This document shows, one piece after another, positions 3,656-63,511 of a stretch of DNA of 64,000 nt (position 1 is its first letter; each line of letters opens with the position of its first letter). The notes under the pieces are model-generated. The model saw only the letters and a list, made by a program, of their open reading frames with translations, did no database searches and was not told the origin of the DNA. A program made the position numbers and the translations under genes. The stretch is from Candidatus Parcubacteria bacterium (GTDB lineage Bacteria > Patescibacteriota > Minisyncoccia > Phycocordibacterales > CAIZLB01): NCBI GenBank assembly GCA_039795875.1, contig JBDKKY010000001.1, forward strand, positions 750 to 64,749, in the 5' to 3' direction.

Positions 3656-6364
3656 CTAGTCTACATCTTCAACCAGAGCCTTGACAGTGTGAGAGCTCTT
3701 GATCTTGCTCTTATGTCCCGCTGATTTGATTTCAAATTTCATTTCATTGTTCTTATCCATGTCGATAACCACCCTCGCTCCACTTTTTATACCTTCAGTG
3801 ATCATCATAGACGCCAACGGTGTCAACACCTTAGTCTGAATCAATCGTCGAAGCGGTCGCGCTCCATATTGAGGGTTGTATCCTTCTTTGGCTAGATACT
3901 CATACACTGGATCTTTAAGTTCCAGAGTAATCTCTTTCTCAGTCAATCGAGCTTGAACTTTCTTAACTTCAATATCGACGATCTTACGTATGGCTTCTGG
4001 TTTCAAGACGTCGAACAGAATGATCTCATCAAGTCGGTTCAAGAATTCTGGTCGGAAATAATCTTTGAGACTTTCCATAACTTTTTCTTTAACATCATCG
4101 TATGATTGAGAGTCATCATTTGAAGTTGAGAAACCAATATTTTTCATCTTATCGATGTATTGAGCACCAATGTTCGAGGTCATGATAATGATTGTATTTT
4201 TAAAATTCACTGTTCGGCCTTTTGAATCAGTCAATCGTCCGTTATCAAGGACTTGCAAAAGAATATTGAAAATATCTGGGTGAGCTTTTTCAATCTCATC
4301 AAAGAGAATCACTGAGTACGGTCGGTGTTTTACTTTATCAACCAAGTTTCCAGATGTATCATCGTGACCAACATAACCTGGAGGTGCTCCGATAATCTTA
4401 GAGACTGAATGTCTCTCGGCAAATTCAGACATATCAACTCGGATCAATGATTTTTCATTTTCAAACATAAAGTCAGCCAAAGCTTTAGTAAGCTCTGTCT
4501 TTCCTACTCCGGTTGGTCCAAGAAAAATGAACGAGCCAATAGGTCGGAGGGGATCGTGAATACCAACCCGTGATCGTTTGATAGTATCAGAAACTTTTTT
4601 AACCGCCTCATCTTGCCCAACAACTTGGGCTTTAAGAACTTCTTCCATGCGTCCAAGTTTTTTAACCTCTTCTTCAAGCATACGGGTTACAGGAACTCCG
4701 GTCCATCGCGCAACAACCTGAGCGATATCTGCCTCGTTGATCTCTTCTTTCAGAACTCGTTTATTGCTGTCCATTTTTCGAAGTTTCTTCAATCGAGCCT
4801 CTAGGTCTTTTTCCAACATTGGCAATTTGCCATAACGAATCTCAGCCGCTTTTCCAAGATCAGCACGTGCTTCCGCACGCTCCGCCTCTTGCCGAAGAGT
4901 TTCTAGATTTTTCTTAATCTCTTTGATGCTATTCAAAGCATCTCGTTCTGACTGCCATTTGGCCTCTGTATCTTTGATGCCATCTTTGACATCAGCAATA
5001 TTTAACTCTAGTTCCTTGATACGCTCTTTAGTGGCTTTATTTTCAGGATCTTTGAGCAATGCCTCTCGTTCGATCTCTAGGCGCATGATCTTTCGATGCG
5101 CGTCTTCAACCGCCTGTGGTTTATTTTCCAAAGAAATCTTAAGAGATGAGGCCGCTTCATCGATCAGGTCAACGGCTTTATCTGGCAATTGTCTATCCGT
5201 AATATATCGTGCGGAAAGTGATACCGCTGCAACAATAGCTTCATCGAGTATTCGTACACCGTGGAACAATTCGTATTTGTCTTTCAATCCTCGCAAAATC
5301 GCTGTTGCATCTTCCAATGTTGGCTCCTGAACATACACAGGTTGAAAACGTCTCTGCAGGGCAGGATCTTTTTCGATGTGTTTTTGATATTCTCGTAGAG
5401 TGGTCGCACCGATAGCGCGAAGCTCTCCGCGTGCCAGTGCAGGCTTCAACATATTTGAAGCATCAAGAGATCCTTCTGTTCCACCAGCACCCATGATGGT
5501 GTGTGTCTCATCGATAAACATGATGATCTTACCGTCGGCCTTCTCAACTTCTTTTAAAATATTTTTTAAGCGATCTTCGAATTCTCCTCGATACTTAGTG
5601 CCTGCAACCAGCGACCCCATATCAAGTGACAACAGTTCTTTGTCCTTCAATGATTCTGGAATATCCCCCATGGCGATACGATTGGCCAATCCTTCGACAA
5701 TGGCTGTTTTACCGACTCCAGCTTCTCCAAGAAGTATCGGATTATTTTTTGTTCGCCGTGAAAGGATCTGAATCACTCGTGAGATCTCTGCATCTCGTCC
5801 GATCACTGGATCAAGTTTGTGCTCACGTGCAAGTGCAGTTAAGTTTCGGGTATATTTTGTTAAAACTTTGGCTTTCTTTGCATCTGTTTGTTGACCACCA
5901 GACGTACCGTTAGTTTTTTGAGATTTGATCAATTCCAAAGTCTCAATACATTTTTCTTTATCAATTTTAAATTTCTCGATCAATTCTCGTCCAGGATTGA
6001 GCGAGTCAAAAAAGGCAATGAAGAGATGCTCCACTGAAACAAAGTTGTCTTTTACTAAAGCTGAGACGGCACCTGAGGCTTCGATGATCGCAGCAAGTTC
6101 TGGTGTTAGGAAAAGTTGATACGCCGGGCTCAGTGTGTTTGAGGCCTCAGTTGAATCGATGGCTTCGAAAGCGTTGTCGGCCATCAAGATAAAATCAACC
6201 TCCATCTTTTCAAGCAGAGTGGTAACCAGAGTGTCTTCTTGGGTCAAGAGTGAGGCTAGGAGGTGCATTGGCTGGACATTTGTTTGTCCTCGTTCTATGG
6301 CCAATTCGTGGGCTCGACGAATAGCCTCCTTGGCTCTCGTAGTGAAGTGATTTAAGGGTAACAT
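3656..6364 (-). CDS. clpB: ATP-dependent chaperone ClpB (Hsp100)
   Basis: 902 aa; Clp N domain, two AAA+ modules ([15 protein letters not shown] and [15 protein letters not shown] Walker A motifs) and a long middle coiled coil. Confidence 0.95.
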
Positions 6365-8023: not shown

Positions 8024-10333
8024 ATGTGTATATTTACTTATAACATGGCTATCAAGAAAAACCTACAAAATACCCCTGATGAACAGGTGCCATCTGACGA
8101 TCATAAAGATGATACGGAGGACACTTTTGGTGGTGCCTTTGGAGGAGCTTTCGGCGGAGCCTTTGGAGGTGGTTTTGAAGTCAAATTTAACAGTGATGGC
8201 TCTACTTCTAAGGTGAAAAAGCAGAAAGATGAGGTAGCAGACAAGAAAGACGTCCCTCTTCGATCCTCTTCTCGAACTTTTACTGTGCAGACCGAAGCTC
8301 CAGTTATTCCAGCCAAAAAGACAGAAACCAAACAAGACGCATGGATGGACGAGATCGCCCGCTCATATGAAAAACGCACCAAAGTGGCTGAATCAACACC
8401 CGCAGTTGTTACTCCCCCAGTTCAAGCACCGGTCCACACATTTGTTGCTCCAACTCCTTTTCGATCAAAGATCTTAACAGTTGAAGAGAAAAAAGCTTTG
8501 AAAGCCAAAGAGGAGGCAAGTAAAAACACTCCCCCTGTCACCGCTCAATCAACTGATACTGACCGAGGCACAGCCTTTGCCAAAACATTTTTAAAAAAAC
8601 CAGGAGAGGTGGGTGCTGGTTTCCGAAAACCACTCAGTCCGTTTTCTCGACCGTTTCAACGACCTGACAATCGCGGACCACAAAGTGGTGGTGGATATTT
8701 TAAACGAACACCACGAGTAAAAGTTAAAAATGCTCCCACACTCAAAACTCGAGTCAGTGGAAAATCTTCTCAGAACAAACTAGAGCTAGTGAAAAATCAC
8801 AACGCTGATATCACTCGTCGCGCACCAGTGATCGCTATCATGGGTCACGTCGATCATGGTAAATCAACATTGTTGGATTACATTCGAAAATCAAATACCG
8901 TTGACCGCGAAGTTGGAGGAATCACTCAAAAGATGTCTGCCTACGAAGTGGAGCACAATGGACAAAAGATTACTTTCCTTGATACACCCGGTCACGAAGC
9001 ATTTACCAGCATGCGAGCCCGTGGAGCTAGTGCAGCCGATATTGCGATCTTGATCGTTTCAGCCGAAGACGGTGTAAAACCACAGACTCTTGATGCCTTG
9101 AAAGCAATCACAGATGCCAAGGTTCCCTACTTTATTGGTGCAAGTAAGATTGATAGACCTGGAGCTGATATTGAGAAAGCAAAACAATCTCTAGCAGAAA
9201 ACAGTGTATTCGTAGAAGGATACGGTGGTGATATTTCCATTGTACCTTTCTCAGGAAAAACTGGCGAAGGGATTGATGATTTGCTTGATATGATTCTCTT
9301 GATGGCCGATGTCGCCGATATCAGCGCGGCTCTTGATGTGCCAGCTGAATGTTTGGTCATCGAAGCCAGTCGAGATAAAGTACGAGGTATCCAGGCGACA
9401 TTGATTGTAAAAAATGGAACACTAAAAACTGGTGCTTTTATTATTTCTGGTGGCGAGGTGTCACCGATCCGAAGTATTGAAAATGCAGAAGGTAAGCAGA
9501 TCAAATCTGCCCTTCCAGGACAACCTGTACGAGTCATGGGTTGGATCGCCGAACCTCGCGTTGGAGATATGTGTGTCATGGCAGCAGATAAAGCTATGGC
9601 TGAATTGATCGCTGCAGAACAAAAATCAATACAAGATCTAGCCAAAGAGATGGATGGCACCCCTGTTGAAAAGAAGGGCGGTATTCCTGTAAACATCCGC
9701 GTACTCTATGGTCTTGATAAAGATGATACTTGGACTCTTCCTGTTGTACTGAAAGCAGACAGCGTTGGAACCCTTGATGCTTTGAAGCAAGAGATTGGGA
9801 AAATAAAATTGGAGCGAATCAATATCCGAGTGATCCGTGCTGAGACTGGAGACATCAATGAAAATGATATCAAACTTGCTCAAGGCAGTAATGATTCAGT
9901 TGTACTTGGATACAATACGAAGATCGACGCCGGTGCTCGACGGCTGGCTGAAGCCACAAAAACAACTGTCGAGACATTTGATATTATTTATAAACTGATC
10001 GAATGGACGACAGAGGAGGCGCAAAAACGAGCACCGAAAGTCCGAAACGAAGAATCTCACTCTACTCTCAAAGTACTGAAAGTGTTTAGTGCAAATAAAC
10101 ACAAACAAGTTCTTGGAGGACGAGTAGAGACAGGTACGCTATCACTTGGTAACACGGTCAAGATCTTACGACGAGAAAATGAAATCGGACGCGGTGAAGT
10201 TGTTGAGCTACAACAAATGCGTGTTGCAACGAAAACTGTCGAGGCTGGTGCTGAGTGTGGATTGATGGTTGAATCAAAGATCGAAATCGTCGCGGGTGAC
10301 GTTCTATCAGCTGTATCATTTATAGAAAGATAA
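8024..10333 (+). CDS. infB: translation initiation factor IF-2
   Basis: G domain [25 protein letters not shown], canonical domain order; N-terminal [16 protein letters not shown] repeat; alternative start at 8045 (MAIKK). Confidence 0.95.
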
Positions 10334-10680: not shown

Positions 10681-10723
10681 CATCCGTGCTATATTGGCTC
10701 TGTGGTAGATCTATGCCTATATT

Positions 10724-10797
10724 GGCGCAGTGGCGAAGTGGCCCAACGCGGCAGTTTGCAAAACTGATATTCGCCGGTTCGACTCCGGCCTGCGCCT
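10724..10797 (+). tRNA. tRNA-Cys (GCA)
   Basis: GGCGCAG/CTGCGCC acceptor, anticodon loop TTGCAAA, T-arm GCCGG-TTCGACT-CCGGC. Confidence 0.8.
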
Positions 10798-10803
10798 CCC
10801 AAC

Positions 10804-10886
10804 GCCTTGGTGGTGGAATGGTAGACACGAGAGACTTAAAATCTCTTGGTAGCAATACCGTGCGGGTTCGAGTCCCGCCCTCGGCA
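10804..10886 (+). tRNA. tRNA-Leu (TAA), long variable arm
   Basis: GCCTTGGTGGTGGAATGGTAGACACG 5' half typical of tRNA-Leu, anticodon arm AGAGA-CTTAAAA-TCTCT, long variable arm, T-arm GCGGG-TTCGAGT-CCCGC. Confidence 0.8.
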
Positions 10887-10890
10887 CAAT

Positions 10891-10930
10891 AAACATAAAA
10901 GCATCCTTCGGGGTGCTTTTATGTTTATTG
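10891..10930 (+). terminator. intrinsic terminator after tRNA-Leu
   Basis: near-perfect hairpin AAACATAAAAGCATCC-TTCG-GGGTGCTTTTATGTTT with a TTCG tetraloop and U-rich tail. Confidence 0.75.
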
Positions 10931-11076
10931 CCAGAGGGACGGGACGAGAAAGCCGGAACCCTGTTGCCATGTCCCAACGGGACGGCAACAAGTGAGGCGG
11001 GGCTGCGCAAAAATTGCGCAGCAATTTTATGTGTAGCCGAGCCCCTCCCTAGCCTTGTAAGGGTCGAGTCCCACCA

Positions 11077-11105
11077 TTGACTCCTCGAACTACTAGTTAT
11101 ATAAT
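11077..11105 (+). promoter_or_regulatory. consensus sigma70 promoter TTGACT-17 nt-TATAAT
   Basis: exact -35 and -10 consensus with a 17-nt spacer, inside the GC-rich island. Confidence 0.5.
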
Positions 11106-11129
11106 ACCGATGGGCACGTGCCCCTACCT

Positions 11130-11276
11130 ATGAGACCCCTAACCGTCCTGTTCTTCCTCGCCCTTATCTGGACCGTCAACCGACACAACAACTCCAGCAA
11201 AAAGAGCCATCCGCCTACTGTAACCACCGAAACAGTAACGGCAGGAGCATCCATCCCCAACCCTGATCAGAAATAA
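11130..11276 (+). CDS. putative 48-aa single-TM peptide
   Basis: hand-translated MRPLTVLFFLALIWTVNRHNNSSKKSHPPTVTTETVTAGASIPNPDQK; downstream of the consensus promoter; GC-rich. Confidence 0.25.
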   Translation: MRPLTVLFFLALIWTVNRHNNSSKKSHPPTVTTETVTAGASIPNPDQK

Positions 11277-11472
11277 CACTGGTCAGAACCTTCCATCACC
11301 TGCAGCCTTGCTGCATGAGTGATTGGGAGGATTTTTTTTATTTGGGCCTTATTTTAAAAGATTATTTACCCTTTTAATCTCACTCGAGTCCTTGACTTTT
11401 ATACATATATATTATAGGATGATACACGAGCTTATTTGAAGGCTTTAAACCTTCCAGAACCATAAGCTCACC

Positions 11473-11739
11473 TTGAAAACGCAAAAAATGAACACCAACC
11501 GCATCGCAATTGGGCTTTGTCTGCTCGGAGCGATTGGCGTCCTTCATTGGGCCGCCACTCATCCAGCCGATAAAGCATCACCGGACACGGCCGTCACCAC
11601 GACATCTGCGCCCAAAAAAACCAAAACCCATAACCCGGGAGTCGTAGCGCAGCTGGAGGGTCACGCCTCCTTCAACCAAACTGCCCCCACAAAACTCGAA
11701 GTCAAACCCGAAATCACCATCCACCCCATCTCCCAGTAA
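11473..11739 (+). CDS. small secreted protein (signal peptide) in the GC-rich island
   Basis: 88 aa; N-terminal hydrophobic segment IAIGLCLLGAIGVL; about 58% GC. Confidence 0.45.
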   Translation: MKTQKMNTNRIAIGLCLLGAIGVLHWAATHPADKASPDTAVTTTSAPKKTKTHNPGVVAQLEGHASFNQTAPTKLEVKPEITIHPISQ

Positions 11740-11742
11740 AAC

Positions 11743-12949
11743 ATGAAAACCATCCTACACTTCTTCATCCTGCTCATCCTCATCACCACCAGCTTCGGCC
11801 AGGTCATCCCCGGCGCCGCACCACCGGTGCCGGCCGGGTTCCCTGCACAAATCCCAGCCTCCTTCGAGGAGGCATGGGACGCAGCGATCACCCGCTCCAC
11901 GACCTACCGTCGCCACATCGGCAGCAACCCTGGCGGTGAAGGTGAGCTGACAGTCATCGGTGGTGGTGCACAGAATCTCGTCGCCATCCTCACTACGCCA
12001 GGAACAATGGACACCATCGACAATGCGACAACGCTCGACAACGCGTACTTCCGGTTGGCCGACGAAAGGACAACCGTGTACGTCTCACGCACCATCACCG
12101 ATGGCGACGGGTTCAGTACGTTCGAATCGTACAGCTCGTTCCAGTTGGAAAAAATCGAGGGACCGGTCGTTATCGGACAGCCCGTCCTGTCACAGCCCAC
12201 GTATCGCATCCCGGAATGGGCCCGGGCAGTCGGATACAACCTGTCCTACTATACGCCTATCCCCTTGCCGGACAATGTGAACAATGCCGAGGTCATCACG
12301 TATGATCCAGAGCGCCCCTGGCACGTCGAAACACATGAGATGCCCATCATCCGGCACGGAGCCAAGACGTTCGTGATGATGGAAAATTGGATCTACGGAG
12401 ATCCAGAACTGCTGAAAAACTCAGTTCTGGTCATCCATACAGACACGGATCCTGTTCGCTACGACTTCGGAGATGGCGGACAGATCTCGAAGCGCCGGAC
12501 CTCTCCGGTTGGCATCGCACCGACTCGCGTCGAATGGAATGGCGGAAAAAAAAATCCGCATCCCTTACACGACCGGGGAACTGGCCCCAGTTGAAGAAAC
12601 TATCTTTCGCTACGGCGAAGAAGGTCAGTTCCTCGAAAACGTCGTGTATGACATCGCCATGACCAACGCGCCGGCAAACAGCTTCAAGATCTTGAGGTTT
12701 CGTGTGCTCGGTCAGTGGGGCAACGGCGGTGTAGCACCTACCGCGCTCCGCATCGTCACCCGCAACAGTGCAGGTGTGGTGGTCGAGAATGCCACGGAAC
12801 CGTTGAGTATCAACTCGGACCTCTGGTTCCGGGTCATCCTACGCAGTAGCGCATCATCCTGCCGCGTCTGGGCTATCTGGCCCGACGGCATCACAACCAC
12901 CAACGGCCAACAGTATGGCCGTCCGACCATGACGGAGAAAGGAAACTAA
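11743..12949 (+). pseudogene. secreted protein gene broken by a frameshift at an A9 tract (track ORFs 11743..12594 and 12473..12949)
   Basis: signal peptide MKTILHFFILLILITTSFG; frames join exactly at GGCGG-AAAAAAAAA-TCCGC (12546-12554); removing one A gives a continuous ~402-aa ORF (...VEWNGGKK|IRIPYTTGELAPVEE...). Confidence 0.5.
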
Positions 12950-12989
12950 CCCTCCGTCATATCCAACCCGAACTTTTAACCCCTAACCA

Positions 12990-13033
12990 CCCGCTCGCAC
13001 AGACCCAACTGTGCGCGCGGGATTTTTTATTTA
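12990..13033 (+). terminator. intrinsic terminator ending the GC-rich island
   Basis: CCCGCTCGCACAG-acccaa-CTGTGCGCGCGGG then ATTTTTTATTTA. Confidence 0.7.
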
Positions 13034-13036
13034 TAT

Positions 13037-13480
13037 TTACTCAAACACCACCAAAAACTCCACCCCCTCATGCCACATTACATTCCACGGATATGGGGTT
13101 ATAGTCTTACCCTCTCCCTTTCCTTCTCGTATCACTACCGCTTCTAGTCCTGGATCAGCGATGAAAGCCCTCTCGCCTAAAGCCACCGTCCTGGTTCCGT
13201 CAATCAGTTCCTTATGATCAATCTCAAATGACACCAACTCTTCAGCTGTCGCAGCTCGTGCAATCATATCATCATGCGCCAATCCATTTATACTTTTTAG
13301 TGCATCATCTGAAGTAATAGGCTTGTTTGGGCGCCACACATATCCTTTTTTCTTACCAATAACATGTGAGGAAAAATTCTTGGAATTTATTTCAGGCAAC
13401 ATTAACTCTACATCAAACCCAGCTTCTTTTATTTTCTCTTCAAATGAAGAATCGGTAACTTCAAAGTCGTATATTTGCAT
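13037..13480 (-). CDS. hypothetical protein (147 aa)
   Basis: intact ORF, baseline composition, no recognised motif. Confidence 0.5.
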   Translation of the reverse strand: MQIYDFEVTDSSFEEKIKEAGFDVELMLPEINSKNFSSHVIGKKKGYVWRPNKPITSDDALKSINGLAHDDMIARAATAEELVSFEIDHKELIDGTRTVALGERAFIADPGLEAVVIREGKGEGKTITPYPWNVMWHEGVEFLVVFE

Positions 13481-25112: not shown

Positions 25113-25334
25113 TATACATTAACAAGGGTGCGGACCAACTTTTTTGTGGTCACAGATAATCTCTTCGCCGTCGCTCAGATATTTGCTCGACCCTTACAGG
25201 GTCAGTACACCTTTTGGATCTTTTGCAGAGCAAAAGCTCTCAAAAGGTTTTACGCCTTGGGTCCCAACCCAAGACTCACCCGACTCGCCCGTTTTTCCAC
25301 AAGGAAAAACATGGCTCCGTCTCGCACATGTACG

Positions 25335-25364: not shown

Positions 25365-25370
25365 GTCATG

Positions 25371-25443
25371 TGCGCATGCTTGGGTTCGAACCAAGGACCT
25401 TTCGAGTATCAGTCGAATGCTCTACCAACTGAGCTACACGCGC
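25371..25443 (-). tRNA. tRNA-Ile (GAT)
   Basis: GCGCGTG acceptor, anticodon arm TTCGA-CTGATAC-TCGAA, T-arm CTTGG-TTCGAAC-CCAAG. Confidence 0.85.
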
Positions 25444-26566: not shown

Positions 26567-28110
<1,544 letters not shown>

Positions 28111-63421: not shown

Positions 63422-63424
63422 ATG

Positions 63425-63511
63425 CGGAGGATGTGAGATTCGAACTCACGGGGCAGTTTCCCACCCGACAGTTTAGTAAACTGTTGATTTAAACCACTCA
63501 TCCAATCCTCC
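63425..63511 (-). tRNA. class II (long variable arm) tRNA, Ser-like, with apparent anticodon ACT
   Basis: GGAGGAT/ATCCTCC acceptor, 3-bp D-stem, anticodon arm ACAGT-TTACTAA-ACTGT, long variable arm, T-arm GTGAG-TTCGAAT-CTCAC. Confidence 0.65.

What the first reader, a model, noticed from the sequence alone, without database searches (positions are those of the whole stretch)
10921..11040. ~110-nt highly structured GC-rich RNA-like element between the tRNA-Leu terminator and the island genes, ending in its own terminator
The sequence CCAGAGGGACGGGACGAGAAAGCCGGAACCCUGUUGCCAUGUCCCAACGGGACGGCAACAAG folds on paper into a long bulged hairpin (CUGUUGCC…GGCAACAAG enclosing GUCCC-AAC-GGGAC). It is followed by a tight hairpin CUGCGCA-AAAAU-UGCGCAG and a U-rich tract, which is an intrinsic terminator. 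The layout of a structured domain followed by a terminator followed by downstream genes is that of a riboswitch or attenuator leader, or a small stable RNA. Repeated ACGG/GGGAC elements are loosely reminiscent of guanidine-type or c-di-GMP-type aptamers, but I cannot assign a family by eye.
Basis: seen in the sequence. Interest (0 to 1): 0.55.

Follow-up and report, generated by a model that had tools for sequence, protein, structure and literature searches.

The report
Decayed tRNA-flanking structured repeat element
The flagged GC-rich hairpins are a worn-down, rearranged copy of an apparently undescribed structured element that sits just after tRNA genes in these tiny (CPR/Parcubacteria) bacteria and whose two ends copy the tail of the neighbouring tRNA; it is not a riboswitch for the genes downstream.

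Summary
The riboswitch/leader reading fails. There is no Rfam hit, no promoter upstream, and a strong promoter-like site lies downstream of the element. In related genomes the same element is followed by different or opposite-strand genes.

Orthologous loci and 32 metagenome loci show a family of about 130-nt elements placed directly after a tRNA gene and its terminator. The layout is: a 5' arm that is the reverse complement of that tRNA's 3' end, GAAARG, a long hairpin P2, GURUACYG, hairpin P3 with loop UGUAA, and a 3' arm that is a direct copy of the tRNA 3' end. Units often occur in tandem.

Covariation is strong: 97.9% of cells paired and 62 double-sided changes against 18 in shuffles. Wobble pairs favour the tRNA strand 41:5.

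The window copy (about 10930-11075) is a degenerate variant scoring only 8.7 bits, and its "terminator" hairpin is lineage-specific. A good second copy follows tRNA-Ile (25189-25251, minus strand, E = 3.5e-8).

Function is unknown. My best guess is a tRNA-linked read-through RNA. The main rival is a recombination module.

The parts
10804..10887 (+). tRNA-Leu(UAA), the gene the element is attached to. Its 3' acceptor strand CCUCGGC leaves two mismatches (U4.C, U5.U) with the 5' strand; relatives have CCGAGGC.
   Evidence: ARAGORN. Rfam tRNA 51.8 bits with two non-canonical pairs marked, against 59.4-59.7 bits in relatives. Alignments A3 and A5.
10888..10929 (.). T1, a palindromic A-tract / GC hairpin (loop UUCG) / U-tract intrinsic terminator of the tRNA operon. 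It looks bidirectional.
   Evidence: Sequence, fold, inverted repeat I1. A terminator of the same design but different sequence is present in every homologous locus.
10930..10952 (+). 5' arm (X'), GCCAGAGGGACGGGAC, the reverse complement of tRNA-Leu positions about 57-73, followed by GAGAAAG (the variant form of GGGACUC-GAAARG).
   Evidence: I1; it pairs with the tRNA 3' end in the MFE fold. It aligns with the 5' arms of L081, L084, L086, L089 and L123. The GGRACGAGAAAR variant is also in L089, L092 and L123/L124.
10960..10992 (+).
   Evidence: Fold. It is single-copy in the window. In L123 the same shape has other letters: GCUUUG-AU-GUCCU-AUC-AGGAC-CAAAGC, with the inner stem changing C-G to U-A.
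10993..11032 (+). UGAGGCGGGG linker, conserved in L123 and similar in L092, then the terminator-like hairpin 11002-11022 and its U-rich tail. The hairpin is specific to this lineage.
   Evidence: Terminator scan. Alignment A5 shows L123 pairs different segments and has no U tract. One search gives the L092 and L123 sequences.
11037..11049 (+). First 3'-arm remnant, CCGAGCCCCUCCC. It is orthologous to L123 CCGAGTCCCGCCC and resembles the tRNA T-loop/T-stem 3' part.
   Evidence: Alignment A5.
11053..11075 (+). Remnant of hairpin P3 (CCUUGUAAGG, with the family loop UGUAA) plus a second 3'-arm copy, GUCGAGUCCCACC, a direct repeat of the tRNA-Leu T-loop/T-stem.
   Evidence: Direct-repeat family D1. 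Weak CM hit 10999-11072, 8.7 bits, E = 4.1, aligned on exactly these motifs. Orthologous to P3+X of L081 and to what is left in L125.
11077..11105 (+). Promoter-like site TTGACT-17-TATAAT for the downstream GC-rich genes. Its -35 box abuts the end of the element. It is not part of the element.
   Evidence: 11 of 12 matches. CCATTGAC directly after the arm is shared by L081, L123 and L125.
25165..25332 (-). Second, much better preserved family member, following tRNA-Ile(GAU) (25370-25443, minus strand) and its terminator. P2, J23 GUGUACUGA and P3 CCC-UGUAA-GGG are intact; the arms are decayed.
   Evidence: sequence. CM R1 hit 25189-25251 (minus strand), 39.7 bits, E = 3.5e-8.

Best explanation
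Window 10930-11075 is a degenerate, rearranged copy of an element family that I could not find described in Rfam 15 or in the papers I searched. The copy is probably the fused remains of two tandem units.

A canonical unit sits immediately after a tRNA gene and its intrinsic terminator, on the same strand. It reads: 5' arm (exact reverse complement of the tRNA's 3' end, from the T-loop to the discriminator, often split by a small A/U-rich hairpin hp1), GAAARG, long hairpin P2, GURUACYG, 5-6-bp hairpin P3 with loop UGUAA, then a 3' arm that is a direct copy of the same tRNA 3' end. A further terminator usually follows, and sometimes another unit.

The two arms can pair into a helix that reproduces the acceptor/T-arm duplex of the neighbouring tRNA and closes a three-way junction. 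Alternatively, the 5' arm can extend the terminator hairpin by pairing with the tRNA's own 3' end.

Shown: the anatomy, its conservation, the covariation, the strand bias, the linkage to many different tRNAs, and the decay of the window copy.

Inferred mechanism (about 45% likely): the element acts as RNA made by read-through of the tRNA terminator. It would be a tRNA-end mimic or antisense module tied to the tRNA transcription unit. The repeated tRNA 3'-end segments also make the locus recombine, so units are gained and lost.

The window copy has lost hp1, the canonical junction strand and most of P3, and has gained a lineage-specific hairpin. It is most likely a relic that at most adds hairpins that stop transcription between the tRNA operon and the next promoter.
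For: Orthology. RbfA-tRNA-Cys-tRNA-Leu synteny was recovered in relatives with 81-91% RbfA identity. L081, L084, L086, L089, L129 and L132 carry a canonical unit at the same place, at 70-82 bits with CM R1. The window aligns to them at the 5' arm, at GGGAC..GAAAG, at P3 and at the 3' arm. It aligns end to end with the L123/L124 variant.

Family. A motif scan of metagenomes gave 32 loci, and the CM found 37 plus-strand matches at E < 1e-6 in 34 sources. Copies follow tRNA-Asp, Gln(UUG/CUG), Arg, Gly(GCC/UCC), Tyr, Val, Leu and Ile, always downstream and co-oriented.

Arms track the tRNA. tRNA-Gly with T-loop TTTCGATTACC is followed by arms GGTAATCGAAA and CGATTACC. Different tRNA-Asp acceptor stems each have matching arms. 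In L096 the 5' arm has C where the tRNA 5' strand has U, so the arm is a complement of the 3' strand and not a copy of the 5' strand.

Structure. 97.9% of cells are paired, and 62 cells changed on both sides against 18.3 +/- 3.0 in shuffles (0 of 500 reach it). The covariation score is 0.391 against at most 0.098 when partners are slid.

Strand. Plus-strand folds are more stable in 19 of 25 members. There are 41 G.U pairs against 5 A.C 1x1 mismatches.

Age. Copies at different tRNAs are about 70% identical whether or not they share a contig, so they are old and constrained rather than recent insertions.

Decay in the window's sub-clade. L125/L127 keep only TGTAAACTTCGAGTCC. L128 scores 24 bits, L123 scores nothing, and the window scores 8.7 bits.

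Not a leader.
Against: No expression data are available. The element lies behind a strong-looking terminator and has no promoter of its own, so any RNA depends on read-through, which I could not measure.

The stems are mostly perfect Watson-Crick. The tRNA 3' end, trailer, terminator and 5' arm often form one long continuous palindrome that includes the discriminator and trailer (L105, L107 and the window). This looks like DNA-level templated copying and can mimic compensatory evolution without any RNA function.

In several lineages the outer 3' arm has decayed while the 5' arm is kept, so the closing helix is not always maintained.

Segments of foreign-looking DNA lie between or beside copies (L094, L092, the window clade), which fits a recombination role.

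The family alignment came from a pattern search that fixed GGGAYTCGAAARG, TGTAA and CGAGYCC. The invariance of those columns is therefore partly ascertainment.

The window copy's membership rests on synteny and alignment, not on the CM score (E = 4.1).
Confidence: 0.6

Rival explanations
1. DNA-level recombination module. The unit would be an attachment-site-like cassette whose folded single strand (arms paired) imitates the duplex of the tRNA gene's 3' end. A recombinase acting in trans would exchange strands at the repeated tRNA 3' end. Units and gene-carrying segments would then accumulate in tandem downstream of tRNAs, as with integron attC x attI, CTX-phage attP x dif, or accretion of integrase-less CIMEs at tRNA genes.
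For: The tRNA 3' end occurs as direct repeats bounding each unit, and tandem arrays exist (L093, L096, L102, L115). In L094 a 3-kb segment is flanked by two copies that share 124 nt at 100% identity and then differ completely in P3. In L092 a 1791-aa ORF lies between two copies. The DNA directly 3' of the tRNA-Leu copy is variable among close relatives. The window and L128 have a hybrid tRNA-Leu 3' end, CCCTCGGCA, matching the element-type arm rather than the tRNA 5' strand. Orientation is fixed and the wobble bias is strand-specific, as for attC.
Against: No integrase or other recombinase gene was seen beside any copy by ORF inspection, and only two neighbouring ORFs were run against Pfam. 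The motif is absent from IMG/VR viral contigs, GenBank phages and PLSDB plasmids. Copies are old and show no recent intragenomic spread. Conserved single-stranded junction letters and GA-hairpin-GA(A) loops in P2 look more like RNA architecture. Site-specific recombination does not by itself explain why the inverted arm is re-matched to each tRNA.
Confidence: 0.25
2. Non-functional debris. In this reading, palindromes grow around tRNA terminators by template switching (quasi-palindrome correction) and unequal crossing-over, and nothing is selected. The window segment would be a GC-rich spacer with chance hairpins.
For: Long perfect palindromes run through the trailer and discriminator. In the window, the two-base GA>TC change in the tRNA-Leu 3' strand makes it a perfect complement of the 5' arm at the cost of acceptor pairing, which is typical of templated mutation. 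There is rapid gain, loss and replacement of hairpins in the window's sub-clade.
Against: The unpaired letters GAAARG, GURUACYG and UGUAA are kept, as is the whole architecture, across at least 9 tRNA identities and many genomes, while terminators and hairpin interiors diverge freely. The wobble asymmetry is 41:5. About 70% core identity persists among old copies.
Confidence: 0.1
3. Riboswitch or attenuator leader controlling the downstream 'island' genes through the 11002-11022 terminator.
For: The layout is a three-way-junction-like fold followed by a hairpin with a U-rich tail and then genes on the same strand.
Against: There is no Rfam match at E <= 10. No promoter lies upstream, and a strong promoter-like site lies downstream of the hairpin. 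The downstream genes differ or are convergent in homologous loci. The terminator hairpin is not conserved in L123.
Confidence: 0.03
4. A pseudo-tRNA or convergent small RNA gene on the minus strand that shares the bidirectional terminator, or a short protein-coding ORF (10913-11080 plus strand, 55 aa; 10836-11024 minus strand, 62 aa).
For: The minus strand ends in UUCUCGUCCCGUCCCUCUGGCA, which resembles the T-arm and acceptor 3' strand of tRNA-Leu, and it is followed by the terminator. ORFs do exist there.
Against: ARAGORN and the Rfam tRNA model find nothing there on either strand. The resemblance follows from the arm being an inverted copy of the tRNA 3' end. Wobble pairs and fold energies favour the plus strand. 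Orthologues differ by many indels and by hairpin-compensating changes that do not preserve a reading frame.
Confidence: 0.02

Closest known systems
tRNA-gene attachment-site duplications and integrase-less remnants (CIMEs) accreted in tandem at tRNA 3' ends (from general knowledge of integrative elements)
   Same: A direct repeat of the tRNA 3' end, from the T-loop to the 3' terminus, bounds each unit. Arrays are tandem. Variable DNA lies next to them. A tRNA with a hybrid 3' end occurs.
   Different: The unit is only about 170 nt and carries no genes. No integrase was seen nearby. Each unit also carries an inverted copy of the same tRNA end and a conserved three-way-junction core with covariation, which att scars do not have.
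Integron attC sites and the CTX-phage folded attP (single-stranded, structure-defined recombination sites; general knowledge)
   Same: Imperfect inverted arms fold on one specific strand. Structure is conserved more than sequence. Orientation is fixed relative to the primary site. Arrays are tandem and start at that site.
   Different: No IntI or Xer-type gene association has been shown. The arms copy about 19-22 nt of the target rather than a 7-nt core. The 'cassette' between sites is usually just a terminator. Recombination has not been demonstrated.
REP/BIME, ERIC, Correia and other intergenic palindromic repeats and MITEs (general knowledge)
   Same: Hairpin-forming elements of about 100-150 nt lie just after genes and terminators, with terminal inverted repeats, and are probably transcribed as 3' extensions.
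   Different: The copies are not near-identical dispersed repeats; they are about 70% identical and old. The terminal repeats are not fixed but equal the neighbouring tRNA's 3' end. The element is strictly tRNA-linked and co-oriented.
tRNA-like RNA domains: tmRNA TLD, bacterial Y-RNA-like YrlA, viral 3' TLS, mascRNA (Rfam RF00023, RF02553, RF01684)
   Same: The terminal helix can imitate an acceptor/T-arm stack with the correct discriminator base, and a T-arm-like hairpin sits directly 5' of the 3' strand.
   Different: There is no meaningful CM match: YrlA gives 14 bits at E = 5.4, and the mascRNA hits fall only on the real tRNA. There is no D/T-loop elbow signature. The mimicry is specific to the adjacent tRNA. 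Processing and CCA addition are untested.
   Same: A P1-closed three-way junction with conserved junction strands, followed by a terminator.
   Different: There are no Rfam hits. There is no associated regulated gene and no upstream promoter. P1 is dictated by the neighbouring tRNA.

Membership tests
tRNA-3'-flank three-way-junction element (family defined here; CM R1) | Lies directly downstream of, and co-oriented with, a tRNA gene and its hairpin terminator | tested here: met
   The window element starts at 10930, one base after the terminator of tRNA-Leu. The same holds in the homologues.
tRNA-3'-flank three-way-junction element (family defined here; CM R1) | The 5' arm is the reverse complement of the neighbouring tRNA's 3' end (T-loop to discriminator) | tested here: met
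   Window 10930-10947, GCCAGAGGGACGGGAC, compared with the reverse complement of tRNA-Leu, TGCCGAGGGCGGGAC, shows two 1-nt insertions.
tRNA-3'-flank three-way-junction element (family defined here; CM R1) | Core junction and hairpins: GGGACUC-GAAARG, P2, GURUACYG, P3 with loop UGUAA, scored by the covariance model | tested here: not met
   CM R1 gives only 8.7 bits, E = 4.1, at 10999-11072. The window has GGGAC-GAG-AAAG, UGAGGCGGGG in place of GURUACYG, and only a half P3 (CCUUGUAAGG). The canonical core is met by the second window copy, 25189-25251 (minus strand), 39.7 bits, E = 3.5e-8.
tRNA-3'-flank three-way-junction element (family defined here; CM R1) | The 3' arm is a direct copy of the tRNA 3' end | tested here: inconclusive
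   Two partial copies exist: CCGAGCCCCUCCC (11037-11049) and GUCGAGUCCCACC (11063-11075). Only the T-loop/T-stem part is kept and the acceptor part is replaced by ATTGAC....
tRNA-3'-flank three-way-junction element (family defined here; CM R1) | Orthology with canonical members at the same genomic site | tested here: met
   RbfA-tRNA-Cys-tRNA-Leu synteny holds with canonical units in L081, L084, L086, L089, L129 and L132, and with the same variant in L123/L124.
Riboswitch / attenuator leader (any Rfam cis-regulatory family, including guanidine-I and c-di-GMP-I) | Match to a curated aptamer or leader covariance model | tested here: not met
   cmscan at the gathering threshold and at E <= 10 gives nothing on the element in the window, L086 or L089.
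Riboswitch / attenuator leader (any Rfam cis-regulatory family, including guanidine-I and c-di-GMP-I) | Sits between a promoter and a conserved regulated gene on the same strand | tested here: not met
   There is no room for a promoter upstream, and a promoter-like site lies downstream at 11077-11105. The downstream genes differ or are convergent among homologues.
tRNA / pseudo-tRNA gene | Cloverleaf detectable by ARAGORN or the Rfam tRNA model | tested here: not met
   No call on either strand in 10888-11110.
Integrated element bounded by att repeats at a tRNA gene | Direct repeat of the tRNA 3' end at the far boundary | tested here: met
   D1 repeat GGTTCGAGTCCCGCC / GGGTCGAGTCCCACC, 196 nt apart. 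Perfect repeats of 19-22 nt occur in canonical loci.
Integrated element bounded by att repeats at a tRNA gene | Integrase/recombinase gene inside or beside the element | tested here: not met
   ORF lists beside 13 copies show none recognisable by inspection. The window's island ORFs have no Pfam match. A trans-acting enzyme is not excluded.
Folded single-strand recombination site (attC-like) | Recombination at the folded site by a dedicated recombinase | not testable with these tools
   Only indirect hints are available: arrays, flanked segments and strand-specific wobble.
Intrinsic terminator (hairpin 11002-11022) | GC-rich stem followed by a U tract, conserved in orthologues | tested here: inconclusive
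   The consensus scan lists it (9 bp, 6 GC, tail AATTTTATGT), but the region has no excess of such sites (3 found, 3.1 expected). The hairpin is absent from L123.

The most novel reading that the evidence does not exclude
The canonical elements are functional, tRNA-specific partners of their neighbouring tRNA genes. Two readings remain open. In one, a read-through RNA carries an antisense arm and a decoy arm that sense or control folding, 3'-end processing or CCA addition of that particular tRNA. This would be a class of cis-encoded tRNA-end mimics in genome-reduced CPR bacteria. In the other, the elements are integron-like, structure-defined recombination sites that use the tRNA 3' end as primary site and capture DNA downstream of tRNA genes without an adjacent integrase. 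In either case three sequence segments (the tRNA 3' strand, the inverted arm and the direct arm) co-evolve, which I am not aware of in any described system.
Probability: 0.3. Interest if true: 0.85.

Novelty: new variant of a known kind. Interest (0 to 1): 0.6.

Why it matters
If the family is functional, it is a widespread and so far unannotated feature of tRNA loci in Patescibacteria. It occurs at 9 or more tRNA identities, with several copies per genome and two in this 64-kb window. It has an unusual property: its ends are re-written to match whichever tRNA it follows.

That would bear on how these minimal genomes terminate, process or protect tRNA transcripts, or on how they acquire DNA at tRNA genes. 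It also matters for annotation. The arms are tRNA fragments that can confuse tRNA and genomic-island callers. The repeats can also remodel the tRNA itself, as in this window, where tRNA-Leu(UAA) carries a two-mismatch acceptor stem.

For the specific finding the lesson is more modest. It is a relic copy, not a regulator of the downstream genes.

Tried and rejected
- Rfam: cmscan at the gathering threshold on the whole window, and at E <= 10 on window 10700-11500, L086 and L089. The only hits were the tRNAs plus chance low scores such as snoR143 at 26 bits against a cut-off of 50.
- Genome-contig scan with IF-2: wasted. The pattern MGHVDHGK matched all bacteria. The only useful hit was L001 (Taylorbacteria, 50% identity), which has tRNA-Cys, Leu, Lys and Leu and no element.
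- Exact look-up of the window's own RbfA: nothing on record. RbfA homologues were used instead.
- Hammerhead and other small ribozymes: the junction strands GAAARG and ..CUGA.. were compared by eye with the hammerhead core. The order of strands and stems does not fit, and Rfam ribozyme models gave nothing.
- Phage or plasmid origin: two motif scans of IMG/VR plus blastn against GenBank phages and PLSDB gave no match.
- Neighbouring integrase: none seen. HTH proteins with a C-terminal region that looks LAGLIDADG-like by eye lie near some tRNA genes; Pfam found only HTH domains, there is no homologue in the window, and no consistent linkage.
- 'Copies within one genome resemble each other': this was my impression by eye, and it was rejected by measurement. 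Identity was 0.70 within a contig, 0.72 for the same tRNA elsewhere, and 0.69 over all pairs.
- Invertible-segment idea: every copy at a significant score is in the same orientation, and the only reverse-strand CM hits are weak (about 17-22 bits) echoes at the same coordinates as strong forward hits.
- Retroviral-type primer-binding site: the 5' arm lacks the complement of CCA.
- Literature: four full-text searches found no description of such an element. The Patescibacteria tRNA group I intron paper (PMC13011429) concerns anticodon-loop introns, not this.
Full report
**1. The observation**

The quoted sequence is window 10931-10992, and the second hairpin is 11002-11022 with an AAUUUUAUGU tail. 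The 120-nt stretch folds to -48.9 kcal/mol (z = -3.85 against dinucleotide shuffles). The minus strand reaches -41.5 kcal/mol (z = -3.07). tRNA-Cys (10724-10799) and tRNA-Leu(UAA) (10804-10887) lie immediately upstream, followed by a palindromic hairpin terminator at 10888-10929.

The first 18 nt after the terminator are an inverted copy of the 3' end of tRNA-Leu (40-nt arms, 75% complementary, I1). In a fold of 10800-11110 they pair with the tRNA's own 3' end (z = -9.8). A short direct copy of the tRNA T-loop/T-stem, GGGTCGAGTCCCACC, lies at 11061-11075 (D1).

**2. It is not a known RNA family and not a leader**

Rfam 15 finds only the tRNAs and 16S rRNA at gathering thresholds. Nothing hits the element at E <= 10 in the window or in two canonical homologues.

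The best promoter-like site of the region (TTGACT-17-TATAAT, 11 of 12) is downstream of the element at 11077-11105. Between the terminator and the element there is no space for a promoter.

**3. Homologous loci**

The window is a Candidatus Parcubacteria MAG; the RbfA hit P0001 is 100% identical. RbfA homologues at 81-91% identity led to loci with the same order IF-2, RbfA, tRNA-Cys, tRNA-Leu.

In L081, L084, L086, L089, L129 and L132, the tRNA-Leu terminator is followed by a conserved unit of about 130 nt. The genes after it differ:
- a convergent glycosyltransferase in L089
- DUF378 in L086
- a 129-aa ORF plus NUDIX in L084
- AAA_33 in L129
- orphan GC-rich genes in L081, L123, L125 and the window

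The element therefore belongs to the tRNA side of the locus. More distant relatives (67-70% RbfA) have no tRNA cluster after RbfA. A Taylorbacteria genome has the tRNAs without the element.

**4. The family**

A degenerate motif taken from these units matched 32 metagenome loci. A covariance model built from 25 distinct cores found 37 plus-strand matches at E < 1e-6 in 34 sources, plus further ones later.

Every copy lies downstream of a tRNA gene and on the same strand as it. The tRNAs are Asp-GUC, Gln-UUG/CUG, Arg-UCG, Gly-GCC/UCC, Tyr, Val, Leu-UAA and Ile. A few copies follow only a fragment of a tRNA 3' end.

The anatomy, in order, is:
- T1, an A-tract / GC stem / U-tract terminator
- the 5' arm, an exact reverse complement of the tRNA from the T-loop to the discriminator, often interrupted by an A/U-rich hairpin hp1
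- GAAARG
- P2, a long hairpin often carrying a GA-[short hairpin]-GA(A) loop
- GURUACYG
- P3, 5-6 bp with loop UGUAA
- the 3' arm, a direct copy of the same tRNA 3' end, often running on into a copy of the trailer and terminator and then into a second unit (L093, L096, L102, L115)

The arms follow the tRNA. tRNA-Gly with T-loop TTTCGATTACC has arms GGTAATCGAAA / CGATTACC. Different tRNA-Asp acceptor stems each have matching arms. In L096 the arm is the Watson-Crick complement of the 3' strand at a position where the tRNA itself has a G.U pair.

**5. Support for the structure**

On the 25-sequence core alignment, 97.9% of cells pair. There are 62 cells with changes on both sides against 18.3 +/- 3.0 in shuffles (0 of 500). 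The covariation score is 0.391, against at most 0.098 with slid partners (pair table).

P3 and the base of P2 carry most of the compensatory changes. The inner closing helix varies only through G.U pairs.

Folds are more stable on the tRNA strand in 19 of 25 members. There are 41 G.U pairs against 5 A.C mismatches. So one specific strand, the tRNA-sense strand, is the one that folds.

Three caveats apply:
- The pattern search fixed several motifs.
- The stems are mostly perfect.
- The tRNA end, trailer, T1 and 5' arm are often one continuous palindrome, which DNA-level template switching could maintain.

**6. Age and mobility**

Core identity is about 0.70 whether two copies share a contig (different tRNAs, n = 6), share a tRNA type (0.72, n = 110) or neither (0.69). 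The copies are therefore old and there is no sign of recent intragenomic spread.

The motif is absent from IMG/VR, GenBank phages and PLSDB. No recombinase was seen beside copies by ORF inspection.

There are nonetheless signs of recombination at the repeats:
- unit number varies
- L094 has a 3-kb segment flanked by two copies that are 100% identical for 124 nt and then differ entirely in P3
- L092 has a 1791-aa ORF between two copies
- L125/L127 have lost all but the last 16 nt of the element

**7. The window copy**

It aligns with the orthologues at the 5' arm, at GGGAC..GAAAG, at P3 and at the 3' arm. It aligns throughout with L123/L124, which share a variant also seen at a tRNA-Gln in L092 and as a truncated second unit in L089. 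The variant reads GGGAC-GAG-AAAG, P2, UGAGGCGGGG, a second hairpin, and CCGAG(U/C)CCC.

Between the window and L123, P2 keeps its shape with different letters. The outer stems differ, and the inner stem is GUCCC/GGGAC in the window against GUCCU/AGGAC in L123.

The 'terminator' hairpin at 11002-11022 is formed by segments that do not pair in L123, so it is a novelty of this lineage.

The window also has an extra 26 nt (AGCCUUGUAAGGGUCGAGUCC) that looks like the P3 loop plus arm of a canonical unit. The CM scores the region at only 8.7 bits (E = 4.1).

I read 10930-11075 as the fused, decayed remains of tandem units.

By contrast, a second copy after tRNA-Ile (25189-25251, minus strand) scores 39.7 bits, E = 3.5e-8.

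**8. Mechanism**

What is shown is a conserved, strand-specific structure that is physically and evolutionarily coupled to the adjacent tRNA's 3' end.

Most likely (about 45%, inferred): canonical units act as RNA produced when polymerase reads through T1. The 5' arm can zip onto the tRNA 3' end as an extension of T1. The 3' arm competes for the 5' arm and closes a three-way junction whose terminal helix imitates the acceptor/T-arm stack, with the right discriminator. This could be recognised by tRNA-end enzymes.

Main rival (about 25%): a folded-single-strand recombination module analogous to attC or CTX attP, or accreted att remnants.

Neutral palindrome growth: about 10%.

For the window copy itself, a relic that at most adds hairpins between the tRNA operon and the next promoter is the most economical reading.

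**9. Comparison and novelty**

The nearest known things are att duplications and CIME arrays at tRNA genes, integron attC sites, REP/MITE-type palindromes and tRNA-like RNA domains. Each shares some features, but none combines a conserved junction core with both an inverted and a direct copy of the neighbouring tRNA's 3' end.

I found no description in Rfam 15 or in four literature searches. Those searches cover only open-access papers and preprints.

Noticed in passing
window 25165-25332 (-), next to tRNA-Ile 25370-25443 (-) downstream of the 16S rRNA gene: A second, well-preserved member of the same element family. The CM hit is 25189-25251, 39.7 bits, E = 3.5e-8. P2, GUGUACUGA and CCC-UGUAA-GGG are intact, while its arms, which should match tRNA-Ile, are decayed.
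   Followed up: partly
window 10804-10887 (tRNA-Leu UAA), 3' acceptor strand 10879-10885: The acceptor 3' strand reads CCUCGGC where most relatives have CCGAGGC. This gives two mismatches (U4.C, U5.U) and a lower tRNA score (51.8 against about 59.5 bits). The changed bases make the tRNA end a perfect complement of the element's 5' arm, and L128 shares them. It looks like a templated (quasi-palindrome) change or a recombination with an element arm. Whether the tRNA still works is unknown.
   Followed up: partly
window 11450-13100 (ORFs 11473-11739, 11743-12594, 12473-12949; also 13037-13480 on the minus strand): This is a GC-rich block (53-62% GC against about 40-45% around it). Its ORFs have no Pfam match; by eye the first ones look secreted or membrane-anchored. 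Homologous sequence follows the element in L081, L123 and L125 but not in L089, L086, L084 or L129. It is therefore a clade-specific insertion beside the tRNA-Leu element rather than a recent arrival in this genome.
   Followed up: partly
window 63424-63511 (-): ARAGORN calls a tRNA-Ser with anticodon ACU, which is unusual for bacteria (GCU is the norm). Rfam scores it at 54.4 bits.
   Followed up: no
window 26568-28109 (-) and 25370-25443 (-): The 16S rRNA gene is followed by tRNA-Ile and then by the element, but no 23S rRNA was found anywhere in the 64-kb window. The rRNA genes therefore seem to be unlinked here.
   Followed up: no
L095 870-1547, L105 4901-5563, L107 8218-8883 and 8918-9592, L102 and L096 (related loci): Free-standing ORFs of about 220 aa lie beside tRNA genes in several element-bearing contigs. 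They have an N-terminal HTH (Pfam HTH_23 and similar) and a C-terminal region with LYWGEG/LMLYIGEGD-type motifs that look like LAGLIDADG homing endonucleases by eye. There is no homologue in the window, and no consistent link to the element.
   Followed up: partly
L095 about 2080-2130: The element here follows a tRNA-Asp 3' half that ARAGORN does not call as a tRNA. This may be an intron-containing tRNA-Asp of the kind reported for Patescibacteria (PMC13011429).
   Followed up: no
L094 (reverse-complement orientation) 5213-5336 and 8284-8407: Two element copies flank about 3 kb of genes. They are 100% identical for 124 nt (trailer, terminator, 5' arm, P2 and the junction strand) and then have entirely different but perfectly paired P3 stems. 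The break in identity falls exactly at the junction/P3 boundary.
   Followed up: partly
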